A stretch of DNA of 64,000 nt from an uncultured Treponemataceae bacterium (GTDB lineage: Bacteria; Spirochaetota; Spirochaetia; Treponematales; UBA12059), in contig CAZNXK010000003.1 of NCBI GenBank assembly GCA_964576835.1, positions 2,044-66,043 on the forward strand. The letters are read 5' to 3'. Below are positions 14,892 through 31,831 of this stretch, one piece after another; position 1 is the first letter of the stretch; each line of letters starts with the position of its first letter. A program made the position numbers and the translations under genes. The notes beneath the pieces are model-generated. The model saw only the letters and a list, made by a program, of their open reading frames with translations, made no database searches and was not told the DNA's origin.

Positions 14892-14921
14892 CTCGGGTTA
14901 TTTCTGTAAGGAGGAGATGCG

Positions 14922-18336: not shown

Positions 18337-18340
18337 TGCG

Positions 18341-19486
18341 ATGACCGGGGATTCGATGCATTGCGCTTCGATTGACGCACTTGTTGCTCTGTCGCGCCGC
18401 TACGGAGGCGATCCGTCCTGGTTGCTCGCCGGAGGCGGCAACACGTCGTACAAGGATGGTTCGACGCTATGGATAAAGGCGTCCGGAAAGGCGCTGGCGA
18501 CTATCGGTCCCGACGGTTTCTGCGCCATGGACAGGACCAGGCTCGCCGCCATGCGGAGCCGCCAATATCCGGCTGATTACGACGCGCGCGAATCCGCGGT
18601 GCTGGCCGACCTCATGGCAGCGAGAGTTCCAGGGCAGTCGGGTCGGCCATCGGTCGAGACCCTCATGCACGATCTTTTCCCGCAGGCTTACGTCGTGCAT
18701 ACGCACCCGGCCCTCGTCAACGGGCTGACCTGCGGCATGGACGGCGAGGAGCGCTTCAGGGAGCTCTTCGGCGATGAAGGCATATGGGTCTCCTATGTCG
18801 ATCCGGGCCTGGTGCTGGCGCGGGCGGTGCAGACGGCGGCAGAGGATTTTCTCCACCGCAAAGGCAGGCTTCCCGGCCTCATGTTCATGCAGAATCACGG
18901 TCTGCTGGTGGCGGCCGCTTCGCCTGAGGGCATCGATGAAATATCTGGCCGCGTGGTCGCGCGGCTCAAGTCGGAACTCGGGCGCTTGCCTGACCGCGGC
19001 ACCGTTGCCGTGCCGGTATCCATCCTCGCCGATTCAGCGACCCGCATCGCGGCGCTCGCGGCTACGGCAAGTTTTATCATCCATAAAGCCGATGTCGATA
19101 TAATGCGCTTCGCTGCTTCGCGGCAGGCCTTCGAGCCGCTTTCATCGTCCTTCAGCCCTGATCACATCGTATATGCCGGCCACGAATTCCTGTATGTCGG
19201 AGAACCGGCGGCCCTGGAGGCCGCCTGGAAGAACTATCGCGAGCGGAACGGATCCGACCCGCGCATTGTCGTCATCGCTTGTGTCGGAGCCTTCGCTCTT
19301 GCCGCGAGTCCCGGAGCCGCCGGGACCGCCATGGCATTCCTTCTGGATGCCTGTACGGTCGCCGTCTATGCGGAGAGCTTCGGCGGCACACTCCATATGG
19401 CCAGAGAGCGGATTGATTTCATACGTACCTGGGAAGTGGAACGATACCGTACCAAAGCCAGCCTTGGCGCCGGGGAGGTGCAGTGA
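18341..19486 (+). CDS. Class II aldolase/adducin-domain protein (RhaE-type rhamnulose-1-phosphate aldolase half)
   Basis: 381 aa with GGGNTS and VVHTHP metal-site motifs. It corresponds to the N-terminal half of bifunctional aldolase/short-chain dehydrogenase proteins of rhamnose clusters, here without the SDR half. Confidence 0.75.
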
Positions 19487-19800
19487 TGCAGAGAGTCGCC
19501 TTCAAGATGCAATTGAAAAAGGGTTTCGAAGCGGAGTACCGCAAGCGCCATGACGAGATATGGCCCGAACTGTCCGCTCTCCTCTCGAACGCTGGCGTTT
19601 CCGATTATTCCATTTTCCTGGATGAGGAAACGCTGACGCTTTTCGGCATCCAGAAGAGATCGGACGATTCGACAGCCGACGACCTCCCCCGGGAGGCTGT
19701 CATGCGCAGTTGGTGGGTTCATATGAAGGATATCATGGAGACAAATCCGGACGGCTCCCCCGTGGCGATCGTTCTGGATGAAGTCTTCCACATGGACTGA
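19483..19800 (+). CDS. rhaM: L-rhamnose mutarotase
   Basis: 105 aa. [29 protein letters not shown] is the typical RhaM N-terminus. There is a 4-nt overlap with the aldolase gene. Confidence 0.9.
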
Positions 19801-19837: not shown

Positions 19838-21100
19838 CTAGATCGCCGGCGCGTTGGCCAGCAGATAGTCTTCCGCCTCCTTGGACCACAACCCTCCGTT
19901 TTTCGCCGCTATGCGTCCGAGTTCCGCCCAGAAGGGCTCGGTCTTGCCGCGTTCGGCGAAATCAGCGATGGCTACGAGCGGCAGCCTCTTGTGGGTGTAG
20001 ATGAGCTTCTTGCCGCCGGGAATCTTGTCCAGTTCGATGGTGGTGGCCGGCACCGCGTCGAGGCCGCCTACGTGGGTAACCATGGTCACGGGATTGAGAC
20101 GTCCGTCGGCCATCATGGCCAGCGATTCCTTGATGTCGTCGGTATTGCCGCCGGAGGTCCCGACCAGGTGGCGGGCCTCGTAATGGACGTTGTAGAAGTT
20201 GAACGCGGCTGAAAAACCCGTGTCCGTAGGGCCGGCAAAGAAGTTGAGGCAGCCGTCGTTGCCAAGTAGCTTGTCAGCCATCTCCACCAGTTGCTTTACA
20301 GGAGCGAAGACGAAGGCGTCGTCGAAGAGTTTGCCGCCGTTCAGTTCCCTGAGTTTCGCTACCGGATCCGGGATGTCCTTCGTGTTGACGTAGACCAGTT
20401 CGACTCCATTGCGCCTCGCCTCGGCGACGGTGTAAATGGAGGCGGCGCGGGAGAGTCTCGCGTCGTCGATGTCGGTGACTACCACCCTTGAGGGTTTTCG
20501 GGGCGCGTGCATCGCGTAGTCGATGGCGCCCATGCCCATGGGGCCTACCGAGGCCAGAAGCGCCAACGACCCGCCTTCTTTGATACCCATATCGTGGACA
20601 TAGGATCCGCCCTTGGTGTGGTACTGGGCATGGTATGCGCCGACTATGCAGGAGACTGGCTCGGATAGCGAACCGGGAAAGAACGCTTCGGCCTCATAGG
20701 GCAGGAGGCAGTCCATCTCCATCACTTCCCTGGGGATGATGATGTAGGTGGCGTCGCCACCTATGTATTCGTAGGAGTAGCCAGGCGCCCAAAGCGTGCC
20801 TTCATAGTTGAGGGCTGGCTGGATGGCGAACTTGTCGCCGGCCTTGAAATCATGCGCCCATTTCTTGCCCACTTCTACGAGGACGCCGCAGAACTCGTGG
20901 CCGATGATTACCGGCCGCTTGGCAAGGTCGGATTTGACGCGTTTGTGGGCGTTGCCTTGCATTGCCAGCTTGTGGCTGGACATGCATATCGAATCGGACA
21001 CCACTCTGGCGAGTATTTCATCGTCCTTGATGGATGGCAGTTCGAATTCTTCGAGCCGCAGGTCGTTGACGCCGTATATCCTGACTGCCTTGGTTTTCAT
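19838..21100 (-). CDS. Zinc-dependent medium-chain dehydrogenase/reductase, SorE (sorbose-1-phosphate reductase)-like
   Basis: 420 aa. The MDR fold is visible (VVSDSICMSSHK, GHEFCG) and the long C-terminal extension is typical of the ~410-aa SorE group. Last gene of the 8-gene operon. Confidence 0.75.
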   Translation of the reverse strand: MKTKAVRIYGVNDLRLEEFELPSIKDDEILARVVSDSICMSSHKLAMQGNAHKRVKSDLAKRPVIIGHEFCGVLVEVGKKWAHDFKAGDKFAIQPALNYEGTLWAPGYSYEYIGGDATYIIIPREVMEMDCLLPYEAEAFFPGSLSEPVSCIVGAYHAQYHTKGGSYVHDMGIKEGGSLALLASVGPMGMGAIDYAMHAPRKPSRVVVTDIDDARLSRAASIYTVAEARRNGVELVYVNTKDIPDPVAKLRELNGGKLFDDAFVFAPVKQLVEMADKLLGNDGCLNFFAGPTDTGFSAAFNFYNVHYEARHLVGTSGGNTDDIKESLAMMADGRLNPVTMVTHVGGLDAVPATTIELDKIPGGKKLIYTHKRLPLVAIADFAERGKTEPFWAELGRIAAKNGGLWSKEAEDYLLANAPAI

Positions 21101-21101
21101 G

Positions 21102-22646
21102 TCATGCTCCTTGTGTTTCAGTCCCGTCTCGGGCCAGGCCCGGGCGGATCAATCGATGCCAGGCTTCGCGGTATGCGGCGAACCCTTCGGCGCCGACCAT
21201 AGGCGCTACGTCCGTATAAGATACTTCAAATCTCCCGCCAAGCGCGTTCGGTTCGCAGCCTTCCAGCGCCGCGACCGCTGTCATCGCGGCTCCGAAAGAA
21301 GTGGCCTCGGCGATGTCGGTGAGCCTGACTGGATTGTCCGGCAGCGCCGACGCGAGGAGGCTGTTGTAGTCGCCGTTTTTCCTGAAGCCGCCCTCGGTGA
21401 GGACCTCCGAGCCTAGCGCGAGCCCGGCCCTTTTCAGGGCGACAAGGGTCTGGATGACGAGGGACGCGTTGAGCACGGCCATCGCGCGCCTGGGATCCTT
21501 CATGAGTTCAGGCACGGCCTTTCCCGACTCTATGTCCTCGAACAGGCATGTCGTACCGCGCTCCGAGACCCGGGCCTTTGATCCAGGGAACTGCCCCGAG
21601 CCCGGCACCAGTTCCGGCAGGATGAACGCATCAAGGGTGCGGAATACAGCAGGATATGACGCCGCTCCGGGATCGGCAGGGTTGGCGCCAGAGATCTTGC
21701 CGATGAGCGTCGACCATTTTTCGTATTCCAGTCCCCCCAGGAATATCGCTGTCTTGACTGGACCCAGGTAGGCGGAACGGTTGAAGAACACCACCTTGCC
21801 GAGTTCTCCGGGTTCGAAGAAAAACCGCTTCTGCGGGTGCATCAGCACGCACCATGTGCCCGTGGAATTGAGTATGAAGTCCGTGCCCTGCCGTTTTGCG
21901 AGATGGGGCAGCAGCGACGCGTTGGAGTCGTGTATGCCCATGGTGACGATGGTGTCCGGGCGCAAGCCCAACCGCGAAACGAGCTCCGGTTTCAGGGTGC
22001 CAAGAACCTCCCATGATTTCCTGAGCGGGTATGGCATCCTGTCAGATACACCGAGGCGCTCGGCTACGGTCGAGTACCGGTCCTTGTTCCAGTCCCAGAG
22101 GTACGAATGGTTTGCGATGTAGGTGCCTTCGACGCCGTACGCTCCCGTGAAGCGGAATCCCCAGTACTGCGGCAGGTTGAGGACCTGCTCTGTCCTTTCC
22201 AAGGCGCCGGGAAAGTGTTCTGTCATGAACATCAGTGCCTTGGCAGGGTTGATCATCGCCGAGAGTCTGGGCGTACCGGTCGAAGCCTGCAGCTCCACCG
22301 GGTCGCCGACCTTCTCGTAGAATCGCCTCTGGAATTCGTCGCCGGGCTCGTAGGTGTACAGCACACACGGCGAGCACGGCAGTCCGTCAGCCCCGACGCA
22401 GACCAGGGTGGCTCCATGGGTCGTGATGGCTATCGCTCCTATCGCGTGTACCCTGGCGAAAGCGGCTATCGATTCAAGAAACCATTCCTCCATGCGGGCC
22501 AGGTCGTGGGTGGGAAGGCCGTCGACCATGACCGGTTCGAAGCTCCGCGAAATGGAGTCGAGCAGATGCAAGGCGCGGTCGTAGACGGAGACTTTCTTGT
22601 TGGTCATGCCGATGTCTATGACCGCGATCTTGGTGTGCACAGCCAC
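21102..22646 (-). CDS. FGGY-family carbohydrate kinase (candidate rhamnulose/ketose kinase)
   Basis: 514 aa with an N-terminal ATPase motif IAVIDIGMTNKK, then ITTHGAT and GIHDSNASLLP motifs. It is 1 nt from the downstream gene. Confidence 0.8.
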   Translation of the reverse strand: MAVHTKIAVIDIGMTNKKVSVYDRALHLLDSISRSFEPVMVDGLPTHDLARMEEWFLESIAAFARVHAIGAIAITTHGATLVCVGADGLPCSPCVLYTYEPGDEFQRRFYEKVGDPVELQASTGTPRLSAMINPAKALMFMTEHFPGALERTEQVLNLPQYWGFRFTGAYGVEGTYIANHSYLWDWNKDRYSTVAERLGVSDRMPYPLRKSWEVLGTLKPELVSRLGLRPDTIVTMGIHDSNASLLPHLAKRQGTDFILNSTGTWCVLMHPQKRFFFEPGELGKVVFFNRSAYLGPVKTAIFLGGLEYEKWSTLIGKISGANPADPGAASYPAVFRTLDAFILPELVPGSGQFPGSKARVSERGTTCLFEDIESGKAVPELMKDPRRAMAVLNASLVIQTLVALKRAGLALGSEVLTEGGFRKNGDYNSLLASALPDNPVRLTDIAEATSFGAAMTAVAALEGCEPNALGGRFEVSYTDVAPMVGAEGFAAYREAWHRLIRPGLARDGTETQGA

Positions 22647-22649
22647 CTC

Positions 22650-23882
22650 CTAGTTGAGCATGACCTGGCCACCGGTCACCGGGAGGGCCTGGCCGGTCTC
22701 GTAGCGCTGGTCGATGAGGTAATAGATAGCCTGCATCACGTCGCGCCCCTCGCAGCCGCGTCCCATTGGCACTTTGGCTTCGTAGAACGCCTTGACGTCG
22801 GATATGCTCTTTGCGCCCGGTACTTTGCCGGTTTGCAGGTACTGTACGAACAGACCCCTGTCGGGATCTGACCACAGCGGCCCATCGAAGAAGTTGCCTG
22901 GGCAGATGGCGTTCACCTTGATGCCATATTCGACCAGCTCGAGGGCGAAGCTCTGCACAAGGCCTATGCCACCGAATTTGGATCCCGCATACGCGCCGTT
23001 TTTATTCGAGCCTTCGAGTCCCGACTTGGAGTTGATCTGGACGATGTCGGCATGGTGGCGGGGAGCTCCCGCATGCTGGCGTTTCATCATGAGCCCCGCA
23101 TGCTTGGCCACCACGAAGAACGCCGTGTAGTTCACCCTGGTGACCAGCTCGAAATCTGACAGGCTCTGTTCGAGCACGCTGCCGGCCTTGAGCACGCCGG
23201 CGTTGCTGATGACCAGGTCAAGGCCACCAGTAGTCCTGGCGACCGAGTGGAACGCCTCGGCTACAGAGGCTTCGTTCGAGACGTCGATGGCCAACGCGAA
23301 GGCAGAAGACGCGCCGGTCTTCGCATTAAGCTCCGCGGCAAGGCGCTCGGCACCCGCAAGGTTGAGGTCGGCGATGAAGACCAGCGCGCCTGACGCTACG
23401 AGACCCCGTACGATTTCCTCTCCGAAGCCCTGTGCGCCGCCAGTGACCAAAGCCGTCTTGCCGCGTACGACCATGCTGCGGAATGTCGCCGCGCCGTCGT
23501 TGCCGGCCGTGCCTGCGGAATCCCCGCCAACGGCGGTAGCGGCCTGCCTGCACGGATTGCAGGTGCCAGCCAGCATCGCCCGGGCGTCGTCAAGGTTCGC
23601 GGCGGCGGCCAGGAGCAATCCCGTTCCTGACTGCCTCAATGCGTAGAGCCGGTCAAGGACGCCGGTACGGCCCGGTGTGGATGCCGGGAAGGCCGCGAGA
23701 CGAAAAATTGCCTGCATTTCCTGCTCATCGGCGTCTTCGGGCAGGTCTACGATGATGGCGTCGGCCGGAGGAATTCCTTCGAGCCTGGCGGTCGCCACGA
23801 TGGCTTGGGCTTTTCCGGCCAGGCCGGCCTCCTGCAGAGCAAGGCCGCGAAGGAAAGGCGCGGCGACTGTCAAATCCATCAT
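22650..23882 (-). CDS. Short-chain dehydrogenase, SrlD/SorD (hexitol-6-phosphate dehydrogenase)/RhaW-like, with ~150-aa N-terminal extension
   Basis: TALVTGGAQGFG cofactor loop, YAGSK catalytic motif, and a C-terminal KVPMGRGCEGRDV...TGQALPVTGGQVM closely resembling E. coli SrlD. I do not recognise residues 1-150. Confidence 0.8.
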   Translation of the reverse strand: MMDLTVAAPFLRGLALQEAGLAGKAQAIVATARLEGIPPADAIIVDLPEDADEQEMQAIFRLAAFPASTPGRTGVLDRLYALRQSGTGLLLAAAANLDDARAMLAGTCNPCRQAATAVGGDSAGTAGNDGAATFRSMVVRGKTALVTGGAQGFGEEIVRGLVASGALVFIADLNLAGAERLAAELNAKTGASSAFALAIDVSNEASVAEAFHSVARTTGGLDLVISNAGVLKAGSVLEQSLSDFELVTRVNYTAFFVVAKHAGLMMKRQHAGAPRHHADIVQINSKSGLEGSNKNGAYAGSKFGGIGLVQSFALELVEYGIKVNAICPGNFFDGPLWSDPDRGLFVQYLQTGKVPGAKSISDVKAFYEAKVPMGRGCEGRDVMQAIYYLIDQRYETGQALPVTGGQVMLN

Positions 23883-25291
23883 GGCCTCCAGTTCTGGACA
23901 AGCCGGGCGAGTGTTTCCGCGTCTTCAGGATTCCTGGAATCCAGGTTCCGGCCGATTTCCGCGTATCGATCCATGCGTTCCGTCAAAGTCAGCGCAGCCA
24001 GCGGGCTTGCGGTTGAGAAGAAGCCCAGCGCAGGATCGAGGCTCGAGAGTTTTTCGTGGGCGACGAGTGCCCAGGTGGTATCGATGAGGCGGGACATCGA
24101 CGGCTCCAGCACCTCGGGGCAGCTGAAGCTCTGCCGCGACGAGTTGATGTCGACGCCCGATATCTCCATGAGGCGGTAGCGCTCGCACAATCCCCTCACT
24201 CGTGCCAGCTGCATCATGGTGTTCCGCGGCGGCATGTAGGTAACCGCCTGGAATCCCGCATCCACCAGCCATGGCAGGAGTTCGTCCAGGAACTCGTCCT
24301 CGAACTTCTCCGCTTTCTTGTCGCCTGTCGGAGAGTCGGCAACGTCGCCCAGGTACGCGTAAGCCGGTATTGCCCCGATATTCCGCGCGAATGCTGTGGC
24401 TGTGGCGACAGGAACGCATTCATCGGGGCCGGGTTGTACGAAGACCTTGTCCAGAAAGCCTGACTTGAGGAAACCCAGCAAGTCGTAGGACAGATGGGGA
24501 TTAGCTGGATCGGATAGCAATGCTGCGACCGTTGGCGGAGGCTGCAGTCCCAGGTTCCCGGAGAGGCCACCGACCAGGTCAGGGCCACGGCCGTGCCGCC
24601 TGAGTATGGAGCCTGCCACTGCTGCCAGGATGTGCCGCTCGGTAACGCTTCCCCCCTCGGCCGCCTTGGACAGCGGCACGACGTCCACGTCGTAGTCCAG
24701 CGCGCCGTAACCCGCGCCGGCCATCAGTTCGGAAGCCGCGGCTGTTGTCTTGCGGTTCCTCGCAGCCCTGGCTACCCAGACAGGCGCAAGGAATTCGGCC
24801 GCCTTGGTGATGCTGCGCCTCGGGATACCCTGGATGGTCATGTAGGCTATGCCTGTTGAGTCGGGATTGTTGAGTTTTCTGTTCTCGAAGGGCGAACCGG
24901 GGCAGGCCACCCTGAGCTCGAAACCGATTGTGCTGCCCAGGCCCAGAATGGCGCATGCTTCCAGCATCTCCTCGGCGGCACCTACAGAGTCATGATCCAC
25001 TGAACCCGCCACGGAGAGCGCGGCCGCCCTCGCGCGCCAGGCTGCCATGGCCGGCGTGTACGGGCTGAAGGAGTATATCGTATGGATGTGGTTGTTTACC
25101 TCGCCCGTAGGAACGGGCACGTTGGCGCCACCCGCCGACTCCGCCGGAACGTTCCTGACCATGGCACGCAACGCGGCGAGGCGATGCACGCGGGAATCCC
25201 ATGGATCTCCTGCTATGGCCAGGAAGGGAAGGGCCGAGCCGTCCGTGCCCGGGGGGATGATCGCGGCAAGCGATTTTTCGCGTTCAGCCAT
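23879..25291 (-). CDS. PHP-domain metal-dependent phosphoesterase-like protein
   Basis: 470 aa with an NNHIHTIYSFSPY (HxH) PHP-type N-terminal motif. There is a 4-nt overlap with the SDR gene. Confidence 0.6.
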   Translation of the reverse strand: MAEREKSLAAIIPPGTDGSALPFLAIAGDPWDSRVHRLAALRAMVRNVPAESAGGANVPVPTGEVNNHIHTIYSFSPYTPAMAAWRARAAALSVAGSVDHDSVGAAEEMLEACAILGLGSTIGFELRVACPGSPFENRKLNNPDSTGIAYMTIQGIPRRSITKAAEFLAPVWVARAARNRKTTAAASELMAGAGYGALDYDVDVVPLSKAAEGGSVTERHILAAVAGSILRRHGRGPDLVGGLSGNLGLQPPPTVAALLSDPANPHLSYDLLGFLKSGFLDKVFVQPGPDECVPVATATAFARNIGAIPAYAYLGDVADSPTGDKKAEKFEDEFLDELLPWLVDAGFQAVTYMPPRNTMMQLARVRGLCERYRLMEISGVDINSSRQSFSCPEVLEPSMSRLIDTTWALVAHEKLSSLDPALGFFSTASPLAALTLTERMDRYAEIGRNLDSRNPEDAETLARLVQNWRP

Positions 25292-25299
25292 AGCGGGGC

Positions 25300-27777
25300 T
25301 CAGACGCCAAGCCTGGCTCGGCGGGCCAGCTCGAGCGTGCCCTGGTTTGTCGTCGGCGCGTGGCCGGGCAGCGGCAGGATGCGCTCATGCACCGCGTCTA
25401 CGATCCAGTCTTTTTGCGGGAAGTAGAGCTCTTCCATCTCGGCCGCCGGCGTTATCCAGTTGCGGCTGCCGACCACCGCGACAGGCGCGTCGAGCTTGTC
25501 GAAGGCCAGGCTCTGCACGTTTGATGCCACCGTGTGCAGGAACGAGCCGCGTTCGGCGGCGTCGCTCGCCAGCAGGAGCCGGCCGGTCTTGGCGACCGAA
25601 TCCAGGAGGATCGTGTAGTCCAGCGGCGCGATGAAGCGGAGGTCTATAACCTCGGTCGAGACGCCGTATTTCTCCTCGAGGACAATAGCGGCCTCGATGG
25701 CCCGGTACAGCGTGGCGCCGAGCGTCGCGATGGTCAGGTCCTTGCCGGAACGGCGTACCGCGCTCTGGCCTTCCGGAACTTCGTAGTAGCCTTCGGGAAC
25801 GCCCGCTTTTTCGAACTGCTCGCCAGAGTCGTACAGGAGCTGGCTTTCAAAGAACACCACCGGGTCGGTGCCGCGCAGGGCCAGGTTGAGCATGCCCTTT
25901 GCGTCGTACGGCGTGGCCGGGAAGTAGACCTTGAGGCCGGGAACGTGGGCCACGAGAGCGCTCCAGTCCTGGGAGTGCTGGGCGCCGTACTTGTTGCCCA
26001 CGGAGACGCGCATCACGAGCGGCATCGACAGGAGCCCCGCCGACATCGATTGCCACTTGCTCGCCTGGTTGAATATCTCGTCCCCGGCGCGACCCATGAA
26101 ATCGCAGTACATCAGCTCGACTACCGCACGGCCGCCCGAGAGCGCGTAACCCACGCCCGCGCCTATGATGGCCGCCTCGGAAATGGAACTGTTGAACAGC
26201 CTGTTGTAGGGCAGGAGCTCGGTCAGGCCTCGGTACACCGCGAATGCACCACCCCAGTCGCGGTTTTCTTCGCCCCATGCCGCCATCGTCGGATCGATCG
26301 CAAAACGGTGGACCATTGCCTCGAACAGCGCGTCGCGGTACTGGTACAGCTTGTTCTTTGAAACCGGCTTGCCCTGGGAATCGAAGGCGTAGCGCGCCTT
26401 GCCGGCGATGGCCTTGACCCTGGCGTTCTCGGCCAGGCTCTGCAGCAGTTCGGGCACCCGGGCCATGCCAGAGTCGGTATCGGCGTCAAAGCGCTCCACC
26501 TTGGCGTTTGACAGCATCACCGACTCGATGAAGGTGCCGTTGGAACGGGGGCAGAGTTCGTCGTTGACGGCGAGAGCGACTACAGCCTGGAGCTTTTCCA
26601 CGATACCCGCCCGGGCCGATGCGAGAGCGTCGGCCGTGATGGCCTTGTTGCCCACCAGATAGCGGCCATAATCCTCTATGGCGTCCGCATCCTGCCACAT
26701 CTTTATTTCTTCGGGTGTCCGGTAGCTCGACGCATCTGAAGGAGAATGCCCGGACACGCGGTAGGTGATGGTGTCGAGCAGCACGGGACCCTTGCCTGCC
26801 GCCAGAATATCCCGTTTCCTCTCCACGGCGTCGGCGACCGCTAGCGGATTGTAGCCGTCCACGCGCTCCGCGTGCATGTTGTCAGGATTGATGCCGGCGC
26901 CGATGCGGGCAAGGATCTTATAGCCCATGGTTTCGCCGCTGGTCTGACCGCCCATACCGTAGAAGTTGTTGAAGACGTTGAACAGTATGGGTGGCGCACC
27001 GCCTGCCGACTCGGGCCACAGCCCTCGGTACTGGTCCATAGATGCCAGGCACATCGCCTCCCATACCGGTCCGCAGCCCATTGACGCGTCGCCTATGTTG
27101 GCTATCACGATGCCGCTCTTGCGGTTGATGCGCTTGAACAGCGCCGAACCGACCGCAATGTCGGCAGAGCCGCCGACGATGGCGTTGTTGGGCATCGAAC
27201 CGAACGGCGTGAAGAACGCGTGCATCGAGCCGCCAAGCCCCCGGTTGACTCCGGCTTTCCTCGCGAAAATCTCGGCCAGGGTGCCGAAGAGCACGAAATT
27301 CTCCGCCAGGTCCCTGAGATTCTTGTACGGGATCTTCTCGGCTAACCTGAGAGTCTCGCCACCCAGGAAGCCCTTCATGATGGTTTCCAGCCTGCCCTCG
27401 TCCAGGGTGGTCACCGCCGAATAGCACTTGGCAAGGATCTCGCCGTGGCTGCGGTGCGAACCGAAGATGAAGTCGTCGACCCCGAGTGACAGGCTCTGAC
27501 CGACGGCCGCGGATTCCTGACCTATGGAAAGGTGGGCGGGACCCTTGTGGTTGTATTCTATGCCGTTCCACGACCCTTGGGTCTTGAACGAATTGAGCAT
27601 CAGCTCGAACTCGCGGATCGTCGCCATGTCGTACCAGGCCTTGACCAGCCGGTCCTGGCCCCATCGCGCCTTTTCCTTGGCGAATTCGCCTTTGTAGGCG
27701 TTGAGCGGAATATCGCTGATAACAAGTGTACCGGAGGCGCGCACTTTGGCGGGTTCTACCGTTATTGACTTGGGCAT
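25300..27777 (-). CDS. TPP-dependent 2-oxoacid/acetoin dehydrogenase E1 component, fused alpha-beta subunits
   Basis: 825 aa. The alpha part carries [11 protein letters not shown] and [10 protein letters not shown]. The beta part carries [12 protein letters not shown]...[16 protein letters not shown]. Both lie in one reading frame. Confidence 0.85.
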
Positions 27778-27847
27778 GTAACTATCTCCCCGGGCATGGC
27801 CCGCGCATGATGTTGATGTCGAGCGACGGCAAGTCGCCTGGATGCGG

Positions 27848-29230
27848 TCACTCGCTGAGTTGCCAAGCGGCGTCCCTTATCAGTTCCCAGACGGTCGGGT
27901 GGGGGAAAATCATTTCACGCAGGTCGGACGCGCGCATCTCCTGCTCTATCAGGACCGCGCCGCCCCATATCGTCTCTGCCGCATAGGCACCCACGCCATG
28001 GAGTCCCAGGATGAGTCCGGTCGCCTTGTCCGTGACCAGCTTGACCGACCCGTGGGCCAGGAATCCGTTCTCTGCAGCGAAGCGCCCCGAAGCCCGCAGC
28101 GGAATCTTGACGCAAGCAGGCTCGAGGCCCCGCGCCCTGGCATCCTTCTCGGTCATCCCGACGCCGGCGGCCTCGGGAATCGAGTAGACGGCCCATGGAA
28201 TCGCGTCCCAGCGCATACGCTCGGGACCCTCGGCCTTGCCTGAAATAACCGCGTCGATGTCGGCCGCGGCCACCTCGGCCATGCGGTAGGCCGAGTGCGC
28301 CAGGAGGCTCCTGCCCGTAAGGTCGCCCGCGGCCCAGATGCCTGGAGCGCTCGTGCGCAACCTTTCGTCCACCGTGACGCCCTTTGGTGACCGGTCCAGA
28401 CTCACTGTTTCGGCGCCCCAGCCGTCCACGTTGGCCTTGCGGCCTATGGCGGCCAGCACCAGGTCGGCCTCAACGGCCTCCGCGACGCCATCCCTGGTGA
28501 TGTAGTTCACAGTGGCTCCCGTTACCGAGGTGACCTTGCAGCCGAGCTTCCAGGTGACCTTGTCCATGGCGCGGCGCAGAACAGGCGCCTGGTCGGCGTC
28601 CATGAAGGGCACGATCTCGTCGAGCATCTCCACGATTGACACCTTGCAGCCCAGGCTGGAAAAGAGGCTGGCGAACTCCACTCCGATGACGCCGCCGCCG
28701 ATGACGCAGAGCCGTTCGGGAACTTCAGTTATTTCCAGGATGCCGGTGGAGTCGAGCACCTTGGGATTATCCCGCAGGCCGGGGATGGGAGGAATGGACG
28801 GGGACGAACCGGTGCACACCAGAATGGCTCTGGCTTCCTCGGTACGCGGAGAGCTGCCAGCCTCCGTCACGGCGACCTTGCCCGGACCTTCGACGCGGGC
28901 TTCGCCGGCAAGCACCGTGACCTTGGCCCTCTTCATCGAACCCACGATGCCTGAGCGCAGCTTCTCGACGACCTCGTTTTTCCATGCCATCATCACGCCC
29001 AGATCGTAGCGCACATTCTCGGCCGTGACGCCGAATTTTTCGCCTTCAAGCGCGTGCACATAGTACTTGGCCGAGTTGAGAAGCGTCTTGGTCGGCACGC
29101 AACCGACGTTGAGGCAGGTGCCACCTATGAGGCCTTTTTCGACCAGCAGCACCGAACGGCCCTTGCCTCCGAGATGCTCGGCGGCCCTGTAGCCGGCGGG
29201 GCCGCCGCCGATGATGATCACGTCGTACAT
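27848..29230 (-). CDS. lpdA: Dihydrolipoyl dehydrogenase (E3)
   Basis: [17 protein letters not shown] loop, the redox disulfide [13 protein letters not shown], and a C-terminal dimerisation domain ending in HPT. Confidence 0.92.
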
Positions 29231-29252
29231 GGTAGTCTCCTGTCCTTGGTAC

Positions 29253-30581
29253 TTATTTGGCTATCCACAGGTCTGCGTCCGCCAGGGCCGTACACAGATC
29301 CTTGAGCAGACGGGCCGCCGGCGCCCCATCGACGACTTGGTGATCCGAGGTCAGCGACAGGGCTATGGCTGGCGCCAGCGCAAACGAACCATCCTCGGCC
29401 GTGAATGGTTTGGGCAGGATGGCTCCGACTCCCAGCACGCAGACCTCGGGCGCGTTGATTACCGGAGTGAAGTAGTCCACCCCGAGCGCGCCAAGGTTGG
29501 ACACCGTGAACGTCGAACCCGACAGCTCGTCCGGGGTCGCCTTGCCTTCGATACAGGCTGCCGCGAGCCGCTTGGCTTCCGCAGATATCTGTTCAAGAGA
29601 CAACAGGTCGGCGTTGCGTATCACCGGCACCATTAGACCCCGCGGTGTATCGACCGCAAGCCCGAGATGCACCCTCTCGAAGGTTTTTATCGTATCGCCC
29701 ACCTTCAGCGAATTGCAGACGGAATGGCTTTTAAGCACCCTGGATGCGGTATACAGGACAATGTCGCCCACGGTCACGCCGCTCAGGCCCAGCGATGCCG
29801 GAGATGCCTTCATGCGGGCGCGCAAACCCTGCAGCCGCTCAGCCTGAGCCGATGCGTGGAGCGTGAACTGCGCCGTCGTGGCCAGCGATTCCCGCATGCG
29901 GTCGGCTATCACCTTGCGAATGCTCCGCATCGGCGTCTCGGCGAACGCTCCGGGGAACTCCGGACAACCTGCCGGGAGGCTCCCTGGCATCGCGCTGGAA
30001 ACAGAGGCAGAAGTGGCGATAGTGCCATCCGAAGCCCCGGCCGCGGCTTCCATATCGGCGAGAAGTATGCGGCCGCCCGGGCCCGATCCAGAAGCGGGGA
30101 CTTGTGCGCCTTCGGCCGCTGCGGCCCGAGCTGCGGCTGAAAGCGGGCCGCGCGCCGTGACGGCAGCCCTCACGTCGCGTTCGAGCACCCTTCCGCCAGG
30201 GCCGGAGCCGGGGAGCACGGCCGCGTCGATCGCCTCGTGGAAGGCCAAGTCCCTGGCGCGTGGTGAAACCCCTGGAACCGCACTGGAAGCGCTTGCGGCG
30301 GTTGCGGCGCAGCCACCGGGGACGGCGGAGGCCCAGTCTTCACCCGCATCGCCGAGGATGGCGATCGGAGCCAGGACCGGGACATCGTCGCCCTCGGCAA
30401 CCAGCAGCTTCAGCACGATGCCGTCGGAGCCGGCTGGCACCTCGAAGACGGCCTTGTCTGTCTCGACGTCGCAGAGGATGTCGGCCGCGGAGAGCCGCGC
30501 GCCTTCGGGGGCTCGCCATCCTACGAGAATGCACGATTCGACAGTGTTGCCCTGGCGGGGCATGGTAACAAGTTTGGCCAC
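29253..30581 (-). CDS. Dihydrolipoamide acyltransferase (E2)
   Basis: One lipoyl domain (VETDKAVFEVPA), Ala/Pro-rich linkers, a subunit-binding domain and a catalytic DHQVVDGA motif. Confidence 0.9.
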   Translation of the reverse strand: MAKLVTMPRQGNTVESCILVGWRAPEGARLSAADILCDVETDKAVFEVPAGSDGIVLKLLVAEGDDVPVLAPIAILGDAGEDWASAVPGGCAATAASASSAVPGVSPRARDLAFHEAIDAAVLPGSGPGGRVLERDVRAAVTARGPLSAAARAAAAEGAQVPASGSGPGGRILLADMEAAAGASDGTIATSASVSSAMPGSLPAGCPEFPGAFAETPMRSIRKVIADRMRESLATTAQFTLHASAQAERLQGLRARMKASPASLGLSGVTVGDIVLYTASRVLKSHSVCNSLKVGDTIKTFERVHLGLAVDTPRGLMVPVIRNADLLSLEQISAEAKRLAAACIEGKATPDELSGSTFTVSNLGALGVDYFTPVINAPEVCVLGVGAILPKPFTAEDGSFALAPAIALSLTSDHQVVDGAPAARLLKDLCTALADADLWIAK

Positions 30582-30591
30582 GGATGCTCTC

Positions 30592-31347
30592 CTATACCAG
30601 TATGAGGTCTATCGAAGCGGCTCGGAGCGCGTCCGCGGCTCCTGGCGCGAGCCCGTCATCCATGATGACGGTATCCACGTCCGAAAGCGGCAGCACCGAC
30701 ACGAAGCCGGAACGCCCGTATTTTGATGAATCTGCCAGCAGTACCGACCGTTCGGCCCTGCCGACCATTGCCTTGACTATCTCTGCGCCTTCAACCAAGT
30801 GGGTGGTCATGCCGCGCTCCACAGACAGGCCATCGGTACCTACGAAAGCCAGGCGCACGTTGTAGCGGCCGATGGCGTCCAGCGCCAGCGGCCCGACCAG
30901 CGATTCGGTGAGGCGGCGGTATTCGCCGCCGACCATGGTCACCGACAGCGAGGGATTGCTGCGGGCCCAGGTCAGGACCAGAGCGGAGTTGGTGACGATG
31001 TGGACGTCGCGCTTGCCGCCAAGGTGGCGCATCACGAGGGCGGTGGTGGTACCGGCTTCGATCATGATACGGTCGCCATCCCTCACGAGGGCGGCGGCAG
31101 CCTTGGCAATCCTGGCCTTTTCAGCGGGGCGTTCCCGCAGGCGGTCGAGCACGTTGGAATGGAAGCTGGGCGCTGCGCCACCGTGGGTACGTTCAAGATA
31201 GCCGAGGTCTTCCAGGTTCTTGAGGTCGCCTCGTATTGTCACGGCCGACACTCCCAATGCCTCGGAGAGGCGGGCTACCGACAGCGAGCCTTCCTCAGCC
31301 AGCGAGTCGATGATCTTGCGTTCGCGCGACGATAAGGTTTCGTTCAT
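30592..31347 (-). CDS. DeoR/GlpR-family transcriptional regulator
   Basis: 251 aa with an N-terminal HTH (SVARLSEALGVSAVTIRGDL) and a C-terminal DeoR sugar-phosphate sensor domain. It lies 10 nt upstream of E2. Confidence 0.9.
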   Translation of the reverse strand: MNETLSSRERKIIDSLAEEGSLSVARLSEALGVSAVTIRGDLKNLEDLGYLERTHGGAAPSFHSNVLDRLRERPAEKARIAKAAAALVRDGDRIMIEAGTTTALVMRHLGGKRDVHIVTNSALVLTWARSNPSLSVTMVGGEYRRLTESLVGPLALDAIGRYNVRLAFVGTDGLSVERGMTTHLVEGAEIVKAMVGRAERSVLLADSSKYGRSGFVSVLPLSDVDTVIMDDGLAPGAADALRAASIDLILV

Positions 31348-31831
31348 GCCTCAATTTACTTTCGTATAGCTTTCATATACTCATCAAGTTGGTTCCGATA
31401 TTAAATGGATTGCCAGCTGAAGTCAAGTGCCCATGAGCCGGTCATCACTCCCCGGATCGCTTCGGGAAGCGCTGGATTCGAGGCGCATGGGGAGGCGTTC
31501 ATGACACAGACGGTGACGGTTCCAGGGCGCGCGCTGGATGCTGCTTTATCCGCAAGGCACCTGTCTGCTCGTCCTGGGCTCGTTGCGGCTCTTCGTCACA
31601 GGCCTTCGCGACGAGCTCGGGAAATCGGGCCGCGTGTGCTACTGAGCGGCCCGATGCCTTGATGGCCAGTCGCCTGGTGGGGGCGAACTTGTAGAGCGGA
31701 TGGTCGCGAAGCCTTGGCTCGACCCTTGCGGGGTACAGTTTTTCGATGATGAGCGGCGCAATCACCATGTGAGGAGTCCCATGGCGCTTTCGAGGGTGTG
31801 AGCCACTGGCATAACCGACAGGACCCGGTCG

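What the first reader, a model, noticed from the sequence alone, without database searches (positions are those of the whole stretch)
19838..31347. DeoR-headed 8-gene operon joins an acetoin/2-oxoacid-dehydrogenase-type complex to a kinase + SorE-like + SorD-like sugar-phosphate set: candidate undescribed 6-deoxyhexose cleavage pathway
Seen: eight minus-strand CDSs (DeoR, E2, E3, fused E1 alpha-beta, PHP phosphoesterase, SDR, FGGY kinase, 420-aa Zn reductase) are separated by -4 to 70 nt, so they most likely form one transcription unit. The operon ends convergent with the rhaA-aldolase-rhaM operon. Established: in the L-sorbose pathway a SorE-type reductase and a SorD/SrlD-type SDR act in series (ketose-1-P -> hexitol-6-P -> ketose-6-P), which moves the carbonyl to the other end of the sugar. 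Acetoin-dehydrogenase E1 enzymes cleave CH3-CO-CHOH-R units into acetyl-lipoamide plus an aldehyde. Inference: applied to a kinase-made L-rhamnulose-1-P (or another 6-deoxyketose-P), the reductase/SDR pair would give a 1-deoxy-2-ketohexose-6-phosphate whose methyl-ketol end resembles acetoin. The E1/E2/E3 complex could then release acetyl-CoA plus a tetrose-4-phosphate and avoid lactaldehyde. I know of no described pathway with this gene architecture. The role of the PHP phosphoesterase is unexplained. Alternative: the complex is an ordinary pyruvate/acetoin dehydrogenase that is merely co-transcribed.
Basis: partly seen in the sequence, partly recalled or inferred. Interest (0 to 1): 0.72.

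Follow-up and report, generated by a model that had tools for sequence, protein, structure and literature searches.

The report
Deoxysugar-linked lipoamide dehydrogenase operon
A spirochaete operon puts a pyruvate-dehydrogenase-like enzyme complex under a sugar-phosphate repressor together with a sugar kinase and two sugar-phosphate dehydrogenases; the same gene set recurs next to rhamnose and fucose genes in three phyla and may be an undescribed way to make acetyl-CoA from deoxy sugars, though no one has tested its function.

Summary
Eight minus-strand genes lie at 19838-31347: DeoR, E2, E3, fused E1 alpha-beta, PHP phosphoesterase, SrlD/RhaW-type SDR, FGGY kinase and a SorE-family Zn reductase. 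The gaps are -4 to 70 nt, and the operon ends convergent with rhaA-aldolase-rhaM.

The module is conserved. All 40 related loci with long flanks keep E2. 34 keep DeoR, and 22 keep the SDR, a PHP-like gene and an MDR gene together. Loci from Spirochaetota and Actinomycetota place it beside L-fucose isomerase/FucU, RhaA, RhaB-like kinases or aldolase-SDR fusions.

A tandem CGAAAG repeat with 11-bp spacing precedes DeoR across phyla and is a likely operator.

The closest E1 relatives are fused E1s on rhizobial plasmids, which sit with sugar kinases and AcoC-type E2s. They are not housekeeping PDH.

The architecture is not unrecorded. The Caldicellulosiruptor rhamnose cluster (FucA, RhaD1, SrlD, SorE, LipB/A, E2, E3, E1, DeoR, RhaA) is published as unassigned and is rhamnose-induced.

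By Fischer-projection reasoning its product would be D-threose-4-P, not erythrose-4-P. An adjacent or fused aldolase keeps a lactaldehyde route alive.

The parts
30592..31347 (-). DeoR-family repressor, first gene of the operon
   Evidence: Pfam HTH_DeoR 56 bits plus DeoRC 168 bits. It is below every NCBIfam equivalog cut-off; the best are GlpR_Halo 178/300 and AgaR 173/260. It is found directly upstream of E2 in 34 of 40 long-flank loci.
31359..31379 (-). Candidate DeoR operator: two direct repeats TATATGAAAG / TATACGAAAG, 11 bp apart, between the -10 box and the DeoR ATG
   Evidence: This is the only exact YGWAAG-N5-YGWAAG site in the window. CGWAAG-N5-CGWAAG lies within 130 nt upstream of DeoR in 19 of 48 related loci (30 of 48 with a relaxed pattern). 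Background is 7e-5 and 8e-4 per equivalent stretch. Binding has not been tested.
31398..31426 (-). Sigma-70-like promoter (TTGACT-17-TAATAT) about 50 nt upstream of the DeoR start
   Evidence: The number of such sites in the region is no higher than in shuffles, so only its position supports it.
29253..30581 (-). E2 dihydrolipoamide acyltransferase (lipoyl, E3-binding and catalytic domains)
   Evidence: Pfam Biotin_lipoyl, E3_binding and 2-oxoacid_dh at 211 bits. The ETDKA lipoyl-lysine motif and the DHQVVDG catalytic motif are readable in the translation. It is below the PDH E2 cut-off (258.9/445).
27848..29230 (-). E3 dihydrolipoamide dehydrogenase
   Evidence: NCBIfam TIGR01350, 424.9 bits against a cut-off of 408.8.
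25300..27777 (-). Fused E1 alpha-beta thiamine-diphosphate component
   Evidence: Pfam E1_dh, Transket_pyr and Transketolase_C in one 825-aa chain. The GDA...NN TPP motif and the [10 protein letters not shown] loop are present. It is below the PDH E1 cut-offs (161.8/393.85 alpha, 236.8/321 beta). Identity is 67-91% across Spirochaetota, Actinomycetota and others. It is 51-55% identical to fused E1s in rhizobial sugar clusters.
23879..25291 (-). PHP-fold (TrpH/YciV-like) metal-dependent phosphoesterase homologue with about 180 extra residues; substrate unknown
   Evidence: No Pfam or NCBIfam hit. PDB 3e0f by sequence, E 0.04. Homologues are named 'PHP domain-containing protein'. AF2 pLDDT is 92.4. 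Foldseek gives 3e0f at E 6e-9 with target TM 0.74, then 2yb1 and 9etk. Invariant H68, H70, D99, H100, E125 and D381. It or the related C37 form (25% identical over 270 aa) is present in 28 of 40 loci.
22650..23882 (-). SrlD/RhaW-type short-chain dehydrogenase with a conserved N-terminal extension of about 135 aa
   Evidence: The best NCBIfam hit is sorbitol-6-P DH at 220.5 bits (cut-off 307); RhaD_aldol-ADH scores 154. The best PDB match is S6PDH 5o3z at 170 bits, with the next at 101. It is 36-39% identical to annotated SrlD and 58% to the SDR half of an aldolase-SDR fusion. The long form is also called in L001 and L002.
21102..22646 (-). Divergent FGGY carbohydrate kinase, the only sugar kinase in the region
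   Evidence: Pfam FGGY_N and FGGY_C_2. It is far below the fuculokinase (52/471) and rhamnulokinase (26/528) cut-offs. PDB 3h6e scores 120 bits and FucK 32 bits. No RhaB-type homologue exists in the window. In other loci a RhaB-like FGGY takes its place.
19838..21100 (-). SorE/YggP-family Zn-dependent ketose-1-phosphate reductase homologue
   Evidence: Identity over 99-100% of its length is 56% to E. coli YggP, 49% to annotated SorE of Klebsiella and Citrobacter, and 47% to the MDR of an L. plantarum sorbose operon. It is 70-88% identical in spirochaete loci. It is distantly related to a 542-aa MDR that replaces it in Actinomycetota, sharing the C-terminal tail.
16903..19800 (+). Convergent rhamnose operon: rhaA (ORF 16903-18336, likely start 17068), RhaE-like class II aldolase (18305-19486) and rhaM (19483-19800)
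   Evidence: RhaA and RhaM pass their equivalog cut-offs. The aldolase has Pfam Aldolase_II and aligns at 34% over residues 9-376 of an aldolase-SDR fusion. The start at 17068 is read from the sequence.
11234..15926 (+). Rhamnose ABC transporter (ATPase, two permeases, RhaS binding protein at 14922-15926), followed by an AraC-family regulator at 15991-16887 on the minus strand
   Evidence: RhaS scores 354.1 against a cut-off of 342.25.
32333..33886 (+). GPH-family sugar:cation symporter, divergent from the operon; its membership of the system is uncertain
   Evidence: NCBIfam gph, 171.6 bits, below its cut-off of 231. It is not conserved in related loci.

Best explanation
This is a DeoR-autoregulated catabolic operon. 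It encodes a dedicated TPP- and lipoamide-dependent dehydrogenase complex (fused E1 alpha-beta, E2, E3) together with a ketose kinase, a SorE-family ketose-1-phosphate reductase, an SrlD/RhaW-family dehydrogenase and a PHP phosphoesterase. It acts as an accessory module of 6-deoxy-L-hexose (L-rhamnose, L-fucose) catabolism.

Proposed mechanism (all steps inferred):
1. RhaA here, or FucI in other genomes, makes the 6-deoxy-L-ketohexose.
2. The FGGY kinase makes the 1-phosphate. This, or a later phospho-sugar, releases DeoR from the CGAAAG repeats.
3. The SorE-like enzyme reduces C2 and the SrlD-like enzyme oxidises C5. The pair is redox-neutral and gives a 1-deoxy-2-ketohexose-6-phosphate with a CH3-CO-CHOH end.
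4. E1 cleaves this acyloin as acetoin dehydrogenase does, and E2 and E3 deliver acetyl-CoA plus one NADH.
5. The aldehyde product is a tetrose-4-phosphate. From the Fischer projections of both sugars I predict D-threose-4-P.
6. The role of the PHP enzyme (and of the HAD phosphatases found next to the module elsewhere) is not assigned. It may remove phosphate from a dead-end or product sugar phosphate.

Shown: the gene content, its conservation, the family memberships, the operator motif and the link to deoxyhexose genes.
Inferred: every chemical step.
For: - Both dehydrogenases have phospho-sugar enzymes as their closest annotated relatives. The Zn enzyme is 49% identical over its full length to SorE and 56% to YggP, and family members sit in PTS ketose operons. 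For the SDR, S6PDH is by far the best solved and annotated match.
- SorE plus an S6P dehydrogenase is the established carbonyl-transposing pair of the L-sorbose pathway (established knowledge).
- The regulator has a DeoRC sensor domain; the characterised DeoR-family regulators I know of sense sugar phosphates (my own knowledge). It is autoregulatory through a motif conserved across phyla.
- The SDR, a PHP-like gene and an MDR travel together with E1/E2/E3 in 22 of 40 long-flank loci. The whole 8-gene order recurs in many spirochaetes.
- The module is linked to both deoxyhexoses. RhaA is adjacent in the window and in L026. FucI (passing its equivalog cut-off) is adjacent in L034, L064, L073, L075, L077 and L078, with FucU as well in L073. 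RhaB-like kinases are adjacent in L026, L046, L048, L057, L077 and L078.
- In Schaalia and Pauljensenia the cluster reads binding protein, FucI, kinase, DeoR, E2, E3, E1, PHP, SDR, MDR, with no aldolase or lactaldehyde reductase in the locus.
- Lipoylation genes are co-located in L026 (LplA) and in C. bescii (LipB/LipA).
- The nearest E1 relatives are fused E1s beside AcoC-type E2 parts, SorC regulators, FGGY/PfkB kinases, sugar ABC transporters and a polyol dehydrogenase on rhizobial plasmids. Their hosts are expected to have a chromosomal PDH (my own knowledge).
- The same set is in the rhamnose-induced Caldicellulosiruptor cluster.
- The route yields only one NADH per sugar and keeps all six carbons, which suits fermenters (inference).
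Against: - No enzyme of the set has been assayed.
- A RhaE-like aldolase is adjacent here. It is fused to the orthologous SDR (58% identity) in six actinobacterial loci. RhaEW fusions were reported to give DHAP plus lactate.
- C. saccharolyticus converts rhamnose to 1,2-propanediol, acetate, H2 and CO2 at 1:1:1:1, which is the aldolase route.
- The predicted tetrose is not erythrose-4-P, and no isomerase for it is in the operon.
- E2 has the classical 2-oxoacid acyltransferase domain rather than the AcoC hydrolase fold.
- Only 8 of 40 long-flank loci have a fuc/rha isomerase or aldolase within 10 kb, and 11 of 40 carry only DeoR-E2-E3-E1.
- In Actinomycetota the MDR is only about 25% identical to the SorE-like enzyme.
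- The PHP enzyme has no role in the scheme.
Confidence: 0.4

Rival explanations
1. Lactaldehyde branch. The aldolase splits the ketose-1-phosphate into DHAP and L-lactaldehyde. The RhaW-like SDR oxidises lactaldehyde to L-lactate, and one of the two dehydrogenases may reduce part of it to 1,2-propanediol. The complex then either acts as a dedicated pyruvate dehydrogenase on lactate-derived pyruvate or takes lactaldehyde itself onto TPP and lipoamide. The second option is what Rodionov et al. proposed for Athe_0702-0704.
For: - An aldolase is adjacent in the window and is fused to the orthologous SDR in six loci.
- RhaEW is published as an aldolase plus lactaldehyde dehydrogenase.
- A published prediction assigns the Caldicellulosiruptor complex to lactaldehyde use.
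- L-lactaldehyde is the common product of the fucose and rhamnose routes, which matches the double linkage.
- E2 is of the PDH type.
Against: - It gives no role to a SorE-family ketose-1-P reductase that is 49-56% identical to family members, nor to a phospho-sugar-type regulator.
- Pyruvate is a central metabolite and needs no dedicated inducible complex.
- E1 and E2 fail the PDH equivalog cut-offs.
- The route makes three NADH per lactaldehyde, which is hard for fermenters (inference).
- The RhaEW assay never used lactaldehyde as substrate, and no DHAP appeared without NAD+.
- No aldolase lies in the FucI-linked Schaalia, Pauljensenia, L073 or L075 loci.
Confidence: 0.28
2. Two unrelated functions share one transcript. 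The kinase, SorE-like and SrlD-like genes form a sorbose-type route from a ketohexose to fructose-6-phosphate, and the complex is an ordinary pyruvate or acetoin dehydrogenase that is merely co-transcribed.
For: - Rodionov et al. labelled the Caldicellulosiruptor SrlD and SorE genes 'Sorbose?'.
- 11 of 40 long-flank loci carry DeoR-E2-E3-E1 without the accessory genes.
- The E1 beta domain is 36-40% identical to generic E1-beta, AcoB and PdhB.
Against: - The accessory genes and the complex co-occur in three phyla in different gene orders, with one DeoR at the head and a conserved operator.
- The linkage is to fucose and rhamnose genes, never to sorbose PTS genes.
- Related fused E1s sit in sugar clusters on accessory plasmids.
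- E1 and E2 are below the PDH cut-offs.
Confidence: 0.1
3. The operon has the same overall logic but different chemistry or substrate. For example, the SDR may oxidise C5 of the ketose-1-phosphate directly, so that E1 cleaves a 6-deoxy-2,5-diketohexose phosphate. The aldolase-like protein may act as a decarboxylase or epimerase on a C4 product. Or the true substrate may be another ketose or polyol phosphate, in which case E1 would form a different acyl-CoA.
For: - The PHP and HAD phosphatases and the conserved N-terminal extension of the SDR have no role in either main scheme.
- Most full 8-gene spirochaete loci have no fuc or rha gene within 10 kb.
- Rhizobial relatives of E1 sit with different upstream enzymes, such as mannitol-DH family, PfkB kinase and sugar-phosphate isomerase genes.
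- The class II aldolase family also contains decarboxylases and epimerases (established knowledge).
Against: No positive evidence points to any one variant. The recurrent FucI, RhaA and RhaB linkage points to deoxyhexoses.
Confidence: 0.22

Closest known systems
Caldicellulosiruptor rhamnose-associated cluster Csac_0865-0876 / Athe_0695-0706 (van de Werken 2008 as cited in PMC4187192; Rodionov 2021, PMC8579813)
   Same: The gene set is the same: class II aldolases, SrlD-like SDR, SorE-like reductase, E2, E3, E1, DeoR regulator (RhaR2) and RhaA, plus lipoylation genes. The cluster is up-regulated on rhamnose, and the function of the non-canonical genes is stated to be unclear.
   Different: - I compared by published annotation only; I could not fetch the sequences.
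- The gene order differs.
- The kinase (RhaB) lies elsewhere in that genome.
- LipA and LipB are inside the cluster.
- A 'hypothetical protein' (Athe_0697) sits where the PHP gene would be, but its homology is not verified.
- The authors propose lactaldehyde as the substrate of the complex and sorbose for SrlD and SorE.
Acetoin dehydrogenase enzyme system (AcoA/AcoB/AcoC/AcoL)
   Same: It is a TPP E1 plus lipoyl E2 plus E3 system that cleaves a CH3-CO-CHOH-R acyloin into acetyl-CoA and an aldehyde. This is the chemistry proposed here. The Caldicellulosiruptor E1 has AcoB as its closest characterised relative (41%).
   Different: - E1 is a single fused chain here.
- E2 has the 2-oxoacid acyltransferase domain, not the AcoC alpha/beta-hydrolase fold.
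- The regulator is DeoR rather than a sigma-54 AcoR type (the latter from my own knowledge).
- The beta domain is only 39% identical to annotated AcoB, the same distance as to PDH E1-beta.
Pyruvate dehydrogenase complex with heterotetrameric-type E1
   Same: The domain content of E1, E2 and E3 is the same. E3 passes the lipoamide dehydrogenase equivalog cut-off.
   Different: - E1 alpha (161.8/393.85), E1 beta (236.8/321) and E2 (258.9/445) fail the equivalog cut-offs.
- The alpha and beta parts are fused.
- The complex is controlled by a sugar-phosphate-type repressor.
- It is embedded among sugar genes.
L-sorbose pathway pair SorE (L-sorbose-1-P reductase) and SorD/SrlD (glucitol-6-P dehydrogenase)
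   Same: The Zn enzyme is 47-56% identical to family members in ketose PTS operons. The SDR's closest annotated family is SrlD. Together these enzymes move the carbonyl of a ketose phosphate to the other end of the chain.
   Different: - No sorbose PTS genes are present; a kinase supplies the phosphate instead.
- The SDR is only 26% identical to the SorD type and 36-39% to SrlD.
- The neighbours are rhamnose and fucose genes.
RhaEW bifunctional rhamnulose-1-P aldolase / lactaldehyde dehydrogenase (Rodionova 2013, PMC3870299)
   Same: The window's aldolase and SDR together align with an aldolase-SDR fusion: 34% over the aldolase half and 58% over the SDR half.
   Different: - The two halves are split between two convergent operons here.
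- Both are far below the TIGR02632 cut-off (88.8 and 154 against 567.75).
- The SDR carries its own N-terminal extension.
Fused E1 alpha-beta clusters on Rhizobium pRL8, Agrobacterium pAt15955 and Pleomorphomonas pSM30-1
   Same: E1 is 51-55% identical over its full length. It sits beside a sugar-binding regulator, a sugar kinase and sugar transporters.
   Different: - E2 is split into a lipoyl protein plus an alpha/beta-hydrolase (AcoC type).
- The regulator is of the SorC type.
- The upstream enzymes differ (sugar-phosphate isomerase, mannitol-DH family, PfkB kinase).
- I found no published function for these clusters.

Membership tests
Pyruvate dehydrogenase complex (alpha/beta-type E1) | E1 alpha and beta reach the curated NCBIfam equivalog or subfamily scores | tested here: not met
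   TIGR03182 scores 161.8 against 393.85. PRK09212 scores 236.8 against 321. PRK11892 scores 231.7 against 454.
Pyruvate dehydrogenase complex (alpha/beta-type E1) | E2 has lipoyl, peripheral-subunit-binding and acyltransferase domains | tested here: met
   Pfam PF00364, PF02817 and PF00198 are all above their cut-offs. The PDH-specific E2 equivalog is not reached (258.9 against 445).
Pyruvate dehydrogenase complex (alpha/beta-type E1) | Pyruvate is the substrate | not testable with these tools
   This needs an enzyme assay.
Acetoin dehydrogenase enzyme system (AcoABCL) | E2 (AcoC) combines a lipoyl domain with an alpha/beta-hydrolase-fold acetyltransferase | tested here: not met
   E2 carries PF00198. 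The AcoC model NF011457 matches only the lipoyl end (residues 2-143, 62 against 307).
Acetoin dehydrogenase enzyme system (AcoABCL) | E1 groups with AcoA/AcoB rather than with Pdh or Bkd | tested here: inconclusive
   The beta domain is 39.0% identical to annotated AcoB, 38.1% to annotated PDH E1-beta, and 59-62% to the fused subfamily. No curated tree could be built.
SorE / YggP ketose-1-phosphate reductase family | Full-length similarity to annotated SorE, with the long (about 410-420 aa) Zn-MDR architecture | tested here: met
   49% identity over 100% of its length to sorE of Klebsiella and Citrobacter, and 56% to YggP.
SorE / YggP ketose-1-phosphate reductase family | Sits in a sorbose or ketose PTS operon, with L-sorbose-1-P as substrate | tested here: not met
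   No PTS genes lie in the operon or its flanks. The substrate cannot be tested here.
Sorbitol-6-phosphate 2-dehydrogenase (SrlD) | Reaches the NCBIfam equivalog score | tested here: not met
   NF009050 scores 220.5 against 307. SrlD is still the closest family: PDB 5o3z at 170 bits with the next at 101, and 36-39% identity.
RhaEW (bifunctional aldolase / SDR) | Aldolase and SDR in one polypeptide that reaches the TIGR02632 score | tested here: not met
   The two genes are separate and on opposite strands. They score 88.8 and 154.4 against 567.75. Even the actinobacterial fusion reaches only 288.8.
PHP (polymerase and histidinol phosphatase) phosphoesterase superfamily | PHP barrel fold with the N-terminal HxH and following metal-ligand motifs | tested here: met
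   Foldseek gives 3e0f at E 6e-9 and probability 1.00, then 2yb1 and 9etk. H68-x-H70, D99-H100 and E125 are invariant. The last motif reads D381-I-N383, which may lack the usual histidine; I did not check this on the structure.
PHP (polymerase and histidinol phosphatase) phosphoesterase superfamily | Phosphoesterase activity | not testable with these tools
   This needs an assay.
FGGY kinases: rhamnulokinase or L-fuculokinase | Reaches an equivalog score for RhaB or FucK | tested here: not met
   Rhamnulokinase scores 26.3 against 527.95 and fuculokinase 52.1 against 470.9. Membership of the FGGY superfamily is met.
DeoR family of sugar-phosphate-responsive repressors | HTH_DeoR plus the DeoRC sensor domain | tested here: met
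   56.4 and 168.1 bits. A direct-repeat operator with 11-bp period lies upstream, the pattern reported for DeoR-type RhaR regulators (PMC3870299). The effector is not testable here.

The most novel reading that the evidence does not exclude
The fused E1 alpha-beta / E2 / E3 complex is a deoxysugar-phosphate acyloin-cleaving dehydrogenase. A kinase and a SorE-like/SrlD-like carbonyl transposition turn L-rhamnulose or L-fuculose into a 1-deoxy-2-ketohexose-6-phosphate. The complex then converts this to acetyl-CoA, NADH and a tetrose-4-phosphate. That would be a third, lipoamide-dependent route of 6-deoxyhexose catabolism that bypasses lactaldehyde and 1,2-propanediol. The related rhizobial fused E1s would extend the same chemistry to other sugars.
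Probability: 0.35. Interest if true: 0.85.

Novelty: new variant of a known kind. Interest (0 to 1): 0.62.

Why it matters
- Rhamnose and fucose are major sugars of plant pectin, algal polysaccharides and host mucin. Textbook anaerobic routes discard half of each molecule as 1,2-propanediol.
- A lipoamide-dependent cleavage that keeps all six carbons and yields acetyl-CoA would change carbon and ATP budgets for gut, oral, termite-gut and sediment fermenters such as Treponema relatives, Arachnia, Schaalia, Tessaracoccus and Caldicellulosiruptor.
- It would give the 2-oxoacid/acetoin dehydrogenase superfamily a sugar-phosphate substrate.
- It would assign a function to a large unannotated family.
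- It would also resolve a question left open since 2008: what the 'other genes' of the Caldicellulosiruptor rhamnose cluster do.
- If instead the complex proves to handle lactaldehyde or pyruvate, the result is still a new, conserved DeoR regulon of deoxyhexose catabolism.

Tried and rejected
- Pfam and NCBIfam on the 470-aa protein gave nothing, even at E = 1. Fold prediction was needed.
- My first length-greedy ORF caller produced many antisense artefacts in high-GC loci: clusters C6, C9, C13, C14, C16, C20, C27 and C28. I replaced it with a caller based on GC at the third codon position.
- I looked for a shared operator between the DeoR operon and the rha operon and found none. The rha operon has its own AraC-type regulator, so co-regulation is not shown.
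- I looked for a RhaB-type kinase, FucI or LplA in the window and found none.
- I considered that the SDR's N-terminal extension might be the linker of aldolase-SDR fusions. BLAST does not support this.
- Literature searches for a characterised pathway found only the unassigned Caldicellulosiruptor cluster. The terms were rhamnose or fucose with acetoin dehydrogenase, lactaldehyde, sorbose-1-P reductase and the Athe locus tags.
- The 2008 primary paper is not held.
- The Haloferax open-issues paper was irrelevant.
- I rejected 'housekeeping PDH' for three reasons: the scores are sub-threshold, the regulator is of the sugar-phosphate type, and related E1s sit on accessory plasmids.
- I rejected erythrose-4-P as the product on stereochemical grounds. 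This is an inference, not a computation.

Full report
**What is in the window.** The window comes from a spirochaete of the Treponema/Rectinema group. The E1 protein has 75-92% identical homologues in Spirochaetota MAGs and isolates. Eight ORFs lie head to tail on the minus strand between 19838 and 31347, with junctions of 1, 3, -4, 8, 70, 22 and 10 nt.

- a DeoR repressor;
- an E2 with lipoyl, E3-binding and acyltransferase domains;
- an E3 that passes the lipoamide dehydrogenase equivalog cut-off;
- an 825-aa chain carrying both E1 alpha and E1 beta;
- an SDR;
- an FGGY kinase;
- a 420-aa Zn-dependent MDR.

The 470-aa protein has no Pfam or NCBIfam hit. Its homologues are annotated as PHP domain proteins. 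A high-confidence AF2 model (pLDDT 92.4) matches PHP phosphoesterases of the TrpH/YciV group (3e0f at E 6e-9, then 2yb1 and RNase AM).

The operon ends 37 nt from the end of rhaM. The plus-strand neighbours are a genuine rhamnose system. The RhaS binding protein, RhaA and RhaM pass their equivalog cut-offs, and a RhaE-like class II aldolase lies between RhaA and RhaM. The window holds no RhaB-type kinase, so the operon's FGGY gene is the only sugar kinase at hand.

**Conservation.** Scanning one genome per species with E1 returned 80 loci. E1 is 67-91% identical across Spirochaetota, Propionibacteriaceae (Tessaracoccus, Arachnia propionica, Propionicimonas), Actinomycetaceae (Schaalia, Pauljensenia), Anaeromyxobacter and other groups. 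That pattern suggests horizontal spread under strong constraint.

Counts in the 40 loci with at least 6 kb on both sides:

| Feature | Loci (of 40) |
|---|---|
| E2 | 40 |
| E3 | 38 |
| DeoR | 34 |
| SDR | 28 |
| PHP-like gene | 28 |
| MDR | 23 |
| SDR, PHP-like and MDR together | 22 |
| Regulator plus complex only | 11 |

The exact 8-gene order recurs in Gracilinema caldarium and many spirochaete MAGs. Actinomycetota carry a second version: a RhaB-like FGGY, a shorter PHP-like protein (25% identical), an aldolase-SDR fusion or a stand-alone SDR, and a 542-aa MDR that shares only the C-terminal half and tail with the spirochaete enzyme.

**Link to deoxyhexoses.** L-fucose isomerase lies within 10 kb of the complex in six loci (L034, L064, L073, L075, L077, L078). 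The one I scored passes its equivalog cut-off (1016.8 against 775). In L073 the isomerase is followed by a FucU mutarotase that sits directly upstream of DeoR. RhaA is adjacent in the window and in L026, where a lipoate-protein ligase is also in the string. RhaB-like kinases occur in six loci, and aldolase-SDR fusions in six.

In Schaalia turicensis and Pauljensenia the cluster reads binding protein, FucI, kinase, DeoR, E2, E3, E1, PHP, SDR, MDR. No aldolase or lactaldehyde reductase is in the locus.

The linkage is not universal. Only 8 of the 40 long-flank loci have such a gene within 10 kb.

**Regulation.** Between a promoter-like site and the DeoR start lie two direct repeats, TATATGAAAG and TATACGAAAG, 11 bp apart. 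They form the only exact site of this kind in the window.

The same arrangement, CGWAAG-N5-CGWAAG, lies upstream of DeoR in 19 of 48 related loci under a strict pattern and 30 of 48 under a relaxed one. Background is 7e-5 and 8e-4 per equivalent stretch. Almost all other occurrences fall in the same intergenic region on the other strand.

This looks like a conserved autoregulatory operator. It matches the direct repeats of 10-11 bp period reported for DeoR-type rhamnose regulators (PMC3870299). The rha operon of the window carries no such site and has its own AraC-type regulator.

**What the enzymes resemble.**
- **Zn enzyme.** It is 56% identical over its whole length to E. coli YggP, 49% to annotated L-sorbose-1-phosphate reductase SorE, and 47% to the MDR of a Lactiplantibacillus sorbose operon. 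The 'SorE-like' label is sound.
- **SDR.** Its closest solved and annotated relatives are sorbitol-6-phosphate dehydrogenases: 170 bits against 101 for the next, and 36-39% identity. It is below the equivalog cut-off. It is only 26% identical to the SorD type. It is also 58% identical to the SDR half of an actinobacterial aldolase-SDR fusion, whose aldolase half aligns with the window's separate aldolase at 34%. The window therefore carries a split RhaEW-like pair.
- **E1 and E2.** Both fail the PDH equivalog cut-offs. The E1 beta domain is 39% identical to annotated AcoB and 38% to annotated PDH E1-beta, but 59-62% identical to a fused-E1 subfamily. On Rhizobium pRL8, Agrobacterium pAt15955 and a Pleomorphomonas plasmid, that subfamily sits beside a lipoyl protein, an AcoC-type hydrolase, a SorC regulator, sugar kinases, sugar ABC transporters, an RbsD/FucU protein, a mannitol-DH-family gene and lipA.

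I conclude that the complex is not a housekeeping PDH. It belongs to a lineage tied to sugar catabolism.

**Literature.** The architecture has been seen before. In Caldicellulosiruptor bescii and C. saccharolyticus the cluster Athe_0695-0706 / Csac_0865-0876 encodes, in order:
- FucA and RhaD1;
- a hypothetical protein;
- SrlD (51% to E. coli SrlD);
- SorE (54% to a Klebsiella L-sorbose-1-P reductase);
- LipB and LipA;
- E2, E3 and E1, whose closest characterised relatives are the acetoin dehydrogenase components;
- a DeoR regulator (RhaR2);
- RhaA.

The authors label SrlD and SorE 'Sorbose?'. They propose that the 'novel three-subunit dehydrogenase homologous to acetoin dehydrogenase' performs the last step, lactaldehyde use.

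[quoted passage not shown] It also reports that rhamnose is fermented to 1,2-propanediol, acetate, H2 and CO2 at 1:1:1:1.

I found no paper that tests any of these enzymes.

The RhaEW work inferred lactaldehyde dehydrogenase activity from a coupled assay that started from rhamnose. The order of the oxidation and cleavage steps in that enzyme family is therefore less settled than its name suggests.

1. A kinase makes the 6-deoxy-L-ketohexose-1-phosphate.
2. The SorE-like and SrlD-like enzymes move the carbonyl from C2 to C5 without net redox change.
3. The resulting methyl-ketol end is an acetoin-like acyloin, which a TPP/lipoamide complex can convert to acetyl-CoA plus an aldehyde.

Three things fit this route: the phospho-sugar character of both dehydrogenases and of the regulator, the double linkage to fucose and rhamnose (C4 and C5 lose their configuration, so both sugars converge), and the needs of fermenters (one NADH, and no carbon lost as propanediol).

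I add one correction. From the Fischer projections, C3 of both L-ketoses becomes C2 of the tetrose with the threo relation to a D-configured C3. The product would therefore be D-threose-4-phosphate, or L-erythrose-4-P if the reductase has the opposite stereochemistry. It would not be erythrose-4-P. Nothing in the operon obviously handles that product. The PHP enzyme, and the HAD phosphatases that follow the operon in five spirochaete loci and flank E1 in L073 and L075, remain unexplained.

Against the route stand three points: the adjacent or fused aldolase, the Caldicellulosiruptor product ratio, and the PDH-type E2.

I put the route at about 0.4, the lactaldehyde/pyruvate reading at about 0.28, a different chemistry or substrate at about 0.22, and mere co-transcription of unrelated functions at about 0.1.

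**Verdict.** The deoxyhexose link, the non-housekeeping nature of the complex and the SorE/SrlD assignments hold. The claim of an undescribed architecture does not hold, and the chemistry is untested. This is a conserved, widespread and experimentally unassigned module. Simple isotope and reconstitution experiments would decide between a new lipoamide-dependent deoxysugar cleavage and a dedicated lactaldehyde or pyruvate branch.

Noticed in passing
window 9921-11363 (+): This 480-aa ORF heads the rhamnose transporter operon. It has no Pfam hit and only a 26-bit match to L-arabinose isomerase. A homologue lies near the module in L005 (cluster C42). In C. bescii a 'predicted L-arabinose isomerase', 25% identical to TM0951, sits next to rhaA. 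It may be an uncharacterised sugar isomerase of the same system.
   Followed up: partly
window 23478-23882 (-), N-terminus of the SDR; also L069, L034, L077, L065: The stand-alone SDRs carry a 70-135-aa N-terminal extension that starts with a conserved P-(L/F)-x-R-G-L motif. BLAST shows no similarity to the linker of aldolase-SDR fusions, and its function is unknown.
   Followed up: partly
window 24140-24149 (-), residues 381-383 of the PHP-like protein: The last PHP metal motif reads D-I-N, with an invariant Asn where TrpH-type enzymes usually have His. The Asp expected seven residues after the HxH motif also seems absent. The metal site may be reduced. I did not check this on the model.
   Followed up: no
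L002, L005, L009, L010, L020 (after the Zn reductase); L073 12467-13522 and L075 12555-13379: HAD-family phosphatases recur immediately downstream of the operon or next to E1. They are a second kind of phosphatase associated with the module.
   Followed up: partly
L083 (Rhizobium johnstonii pRL8), L084 (Agrobacterium pAt15955), L085 (Pleomorphomonas pSM30-1): A fused E1 alpha-beta that is 51-55% identical sits with a free lipoyl protein, an AcoC-type hydrolase, a SorC regulator, FGGY or PfkB kinases, sugar ABC transporters, RbsD/FucU, a mannitol-DH-family gene and lipA. This looks like another unassigned sugar-linked acetoin-dehydrogenase-like system.
   Followed up: partly
window 16903-17067 (+): The listed rhaA ORF starts 15 nt from the divergent AraC gene. 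The family alignment begins at residue 65, and an in-frame ATG at 17068 follows a GGAG-rich stretch. The real start is probably 17068.
   Followed up: partly
window 31348-32332: The spacer between DeoR and the divergent GPH symporter is unusually long, at 985 nt. It contains only weak ORFs (for example 31832-32278 on the minus strand, with a TTG start) and no conserved feature that I identified beyond the operator.
   Followed up: no
window 34003-38204 (-) and beyond: A carbamoyltransferase-like gene and a 974-aa molybdopterin/2Fe-2S xanthine-dehydrogenase-family gene follow the symporter. They probably belong to a purine or related catabolic cluster unrelated to the finding.
   Followed up: no
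L016 (Treponema primitia ZAS-10), L015, L017, L027, L030, L032 (Anaeromyxobacter), L041: These loci carry DeoR-E2-E3-E1, or only E2-E3-E1, with no SDR, PHP or MDR gene within 10 kb. The complex may therefore also work with partners encoded elsewhere, or on its own.
   Followed up: partly
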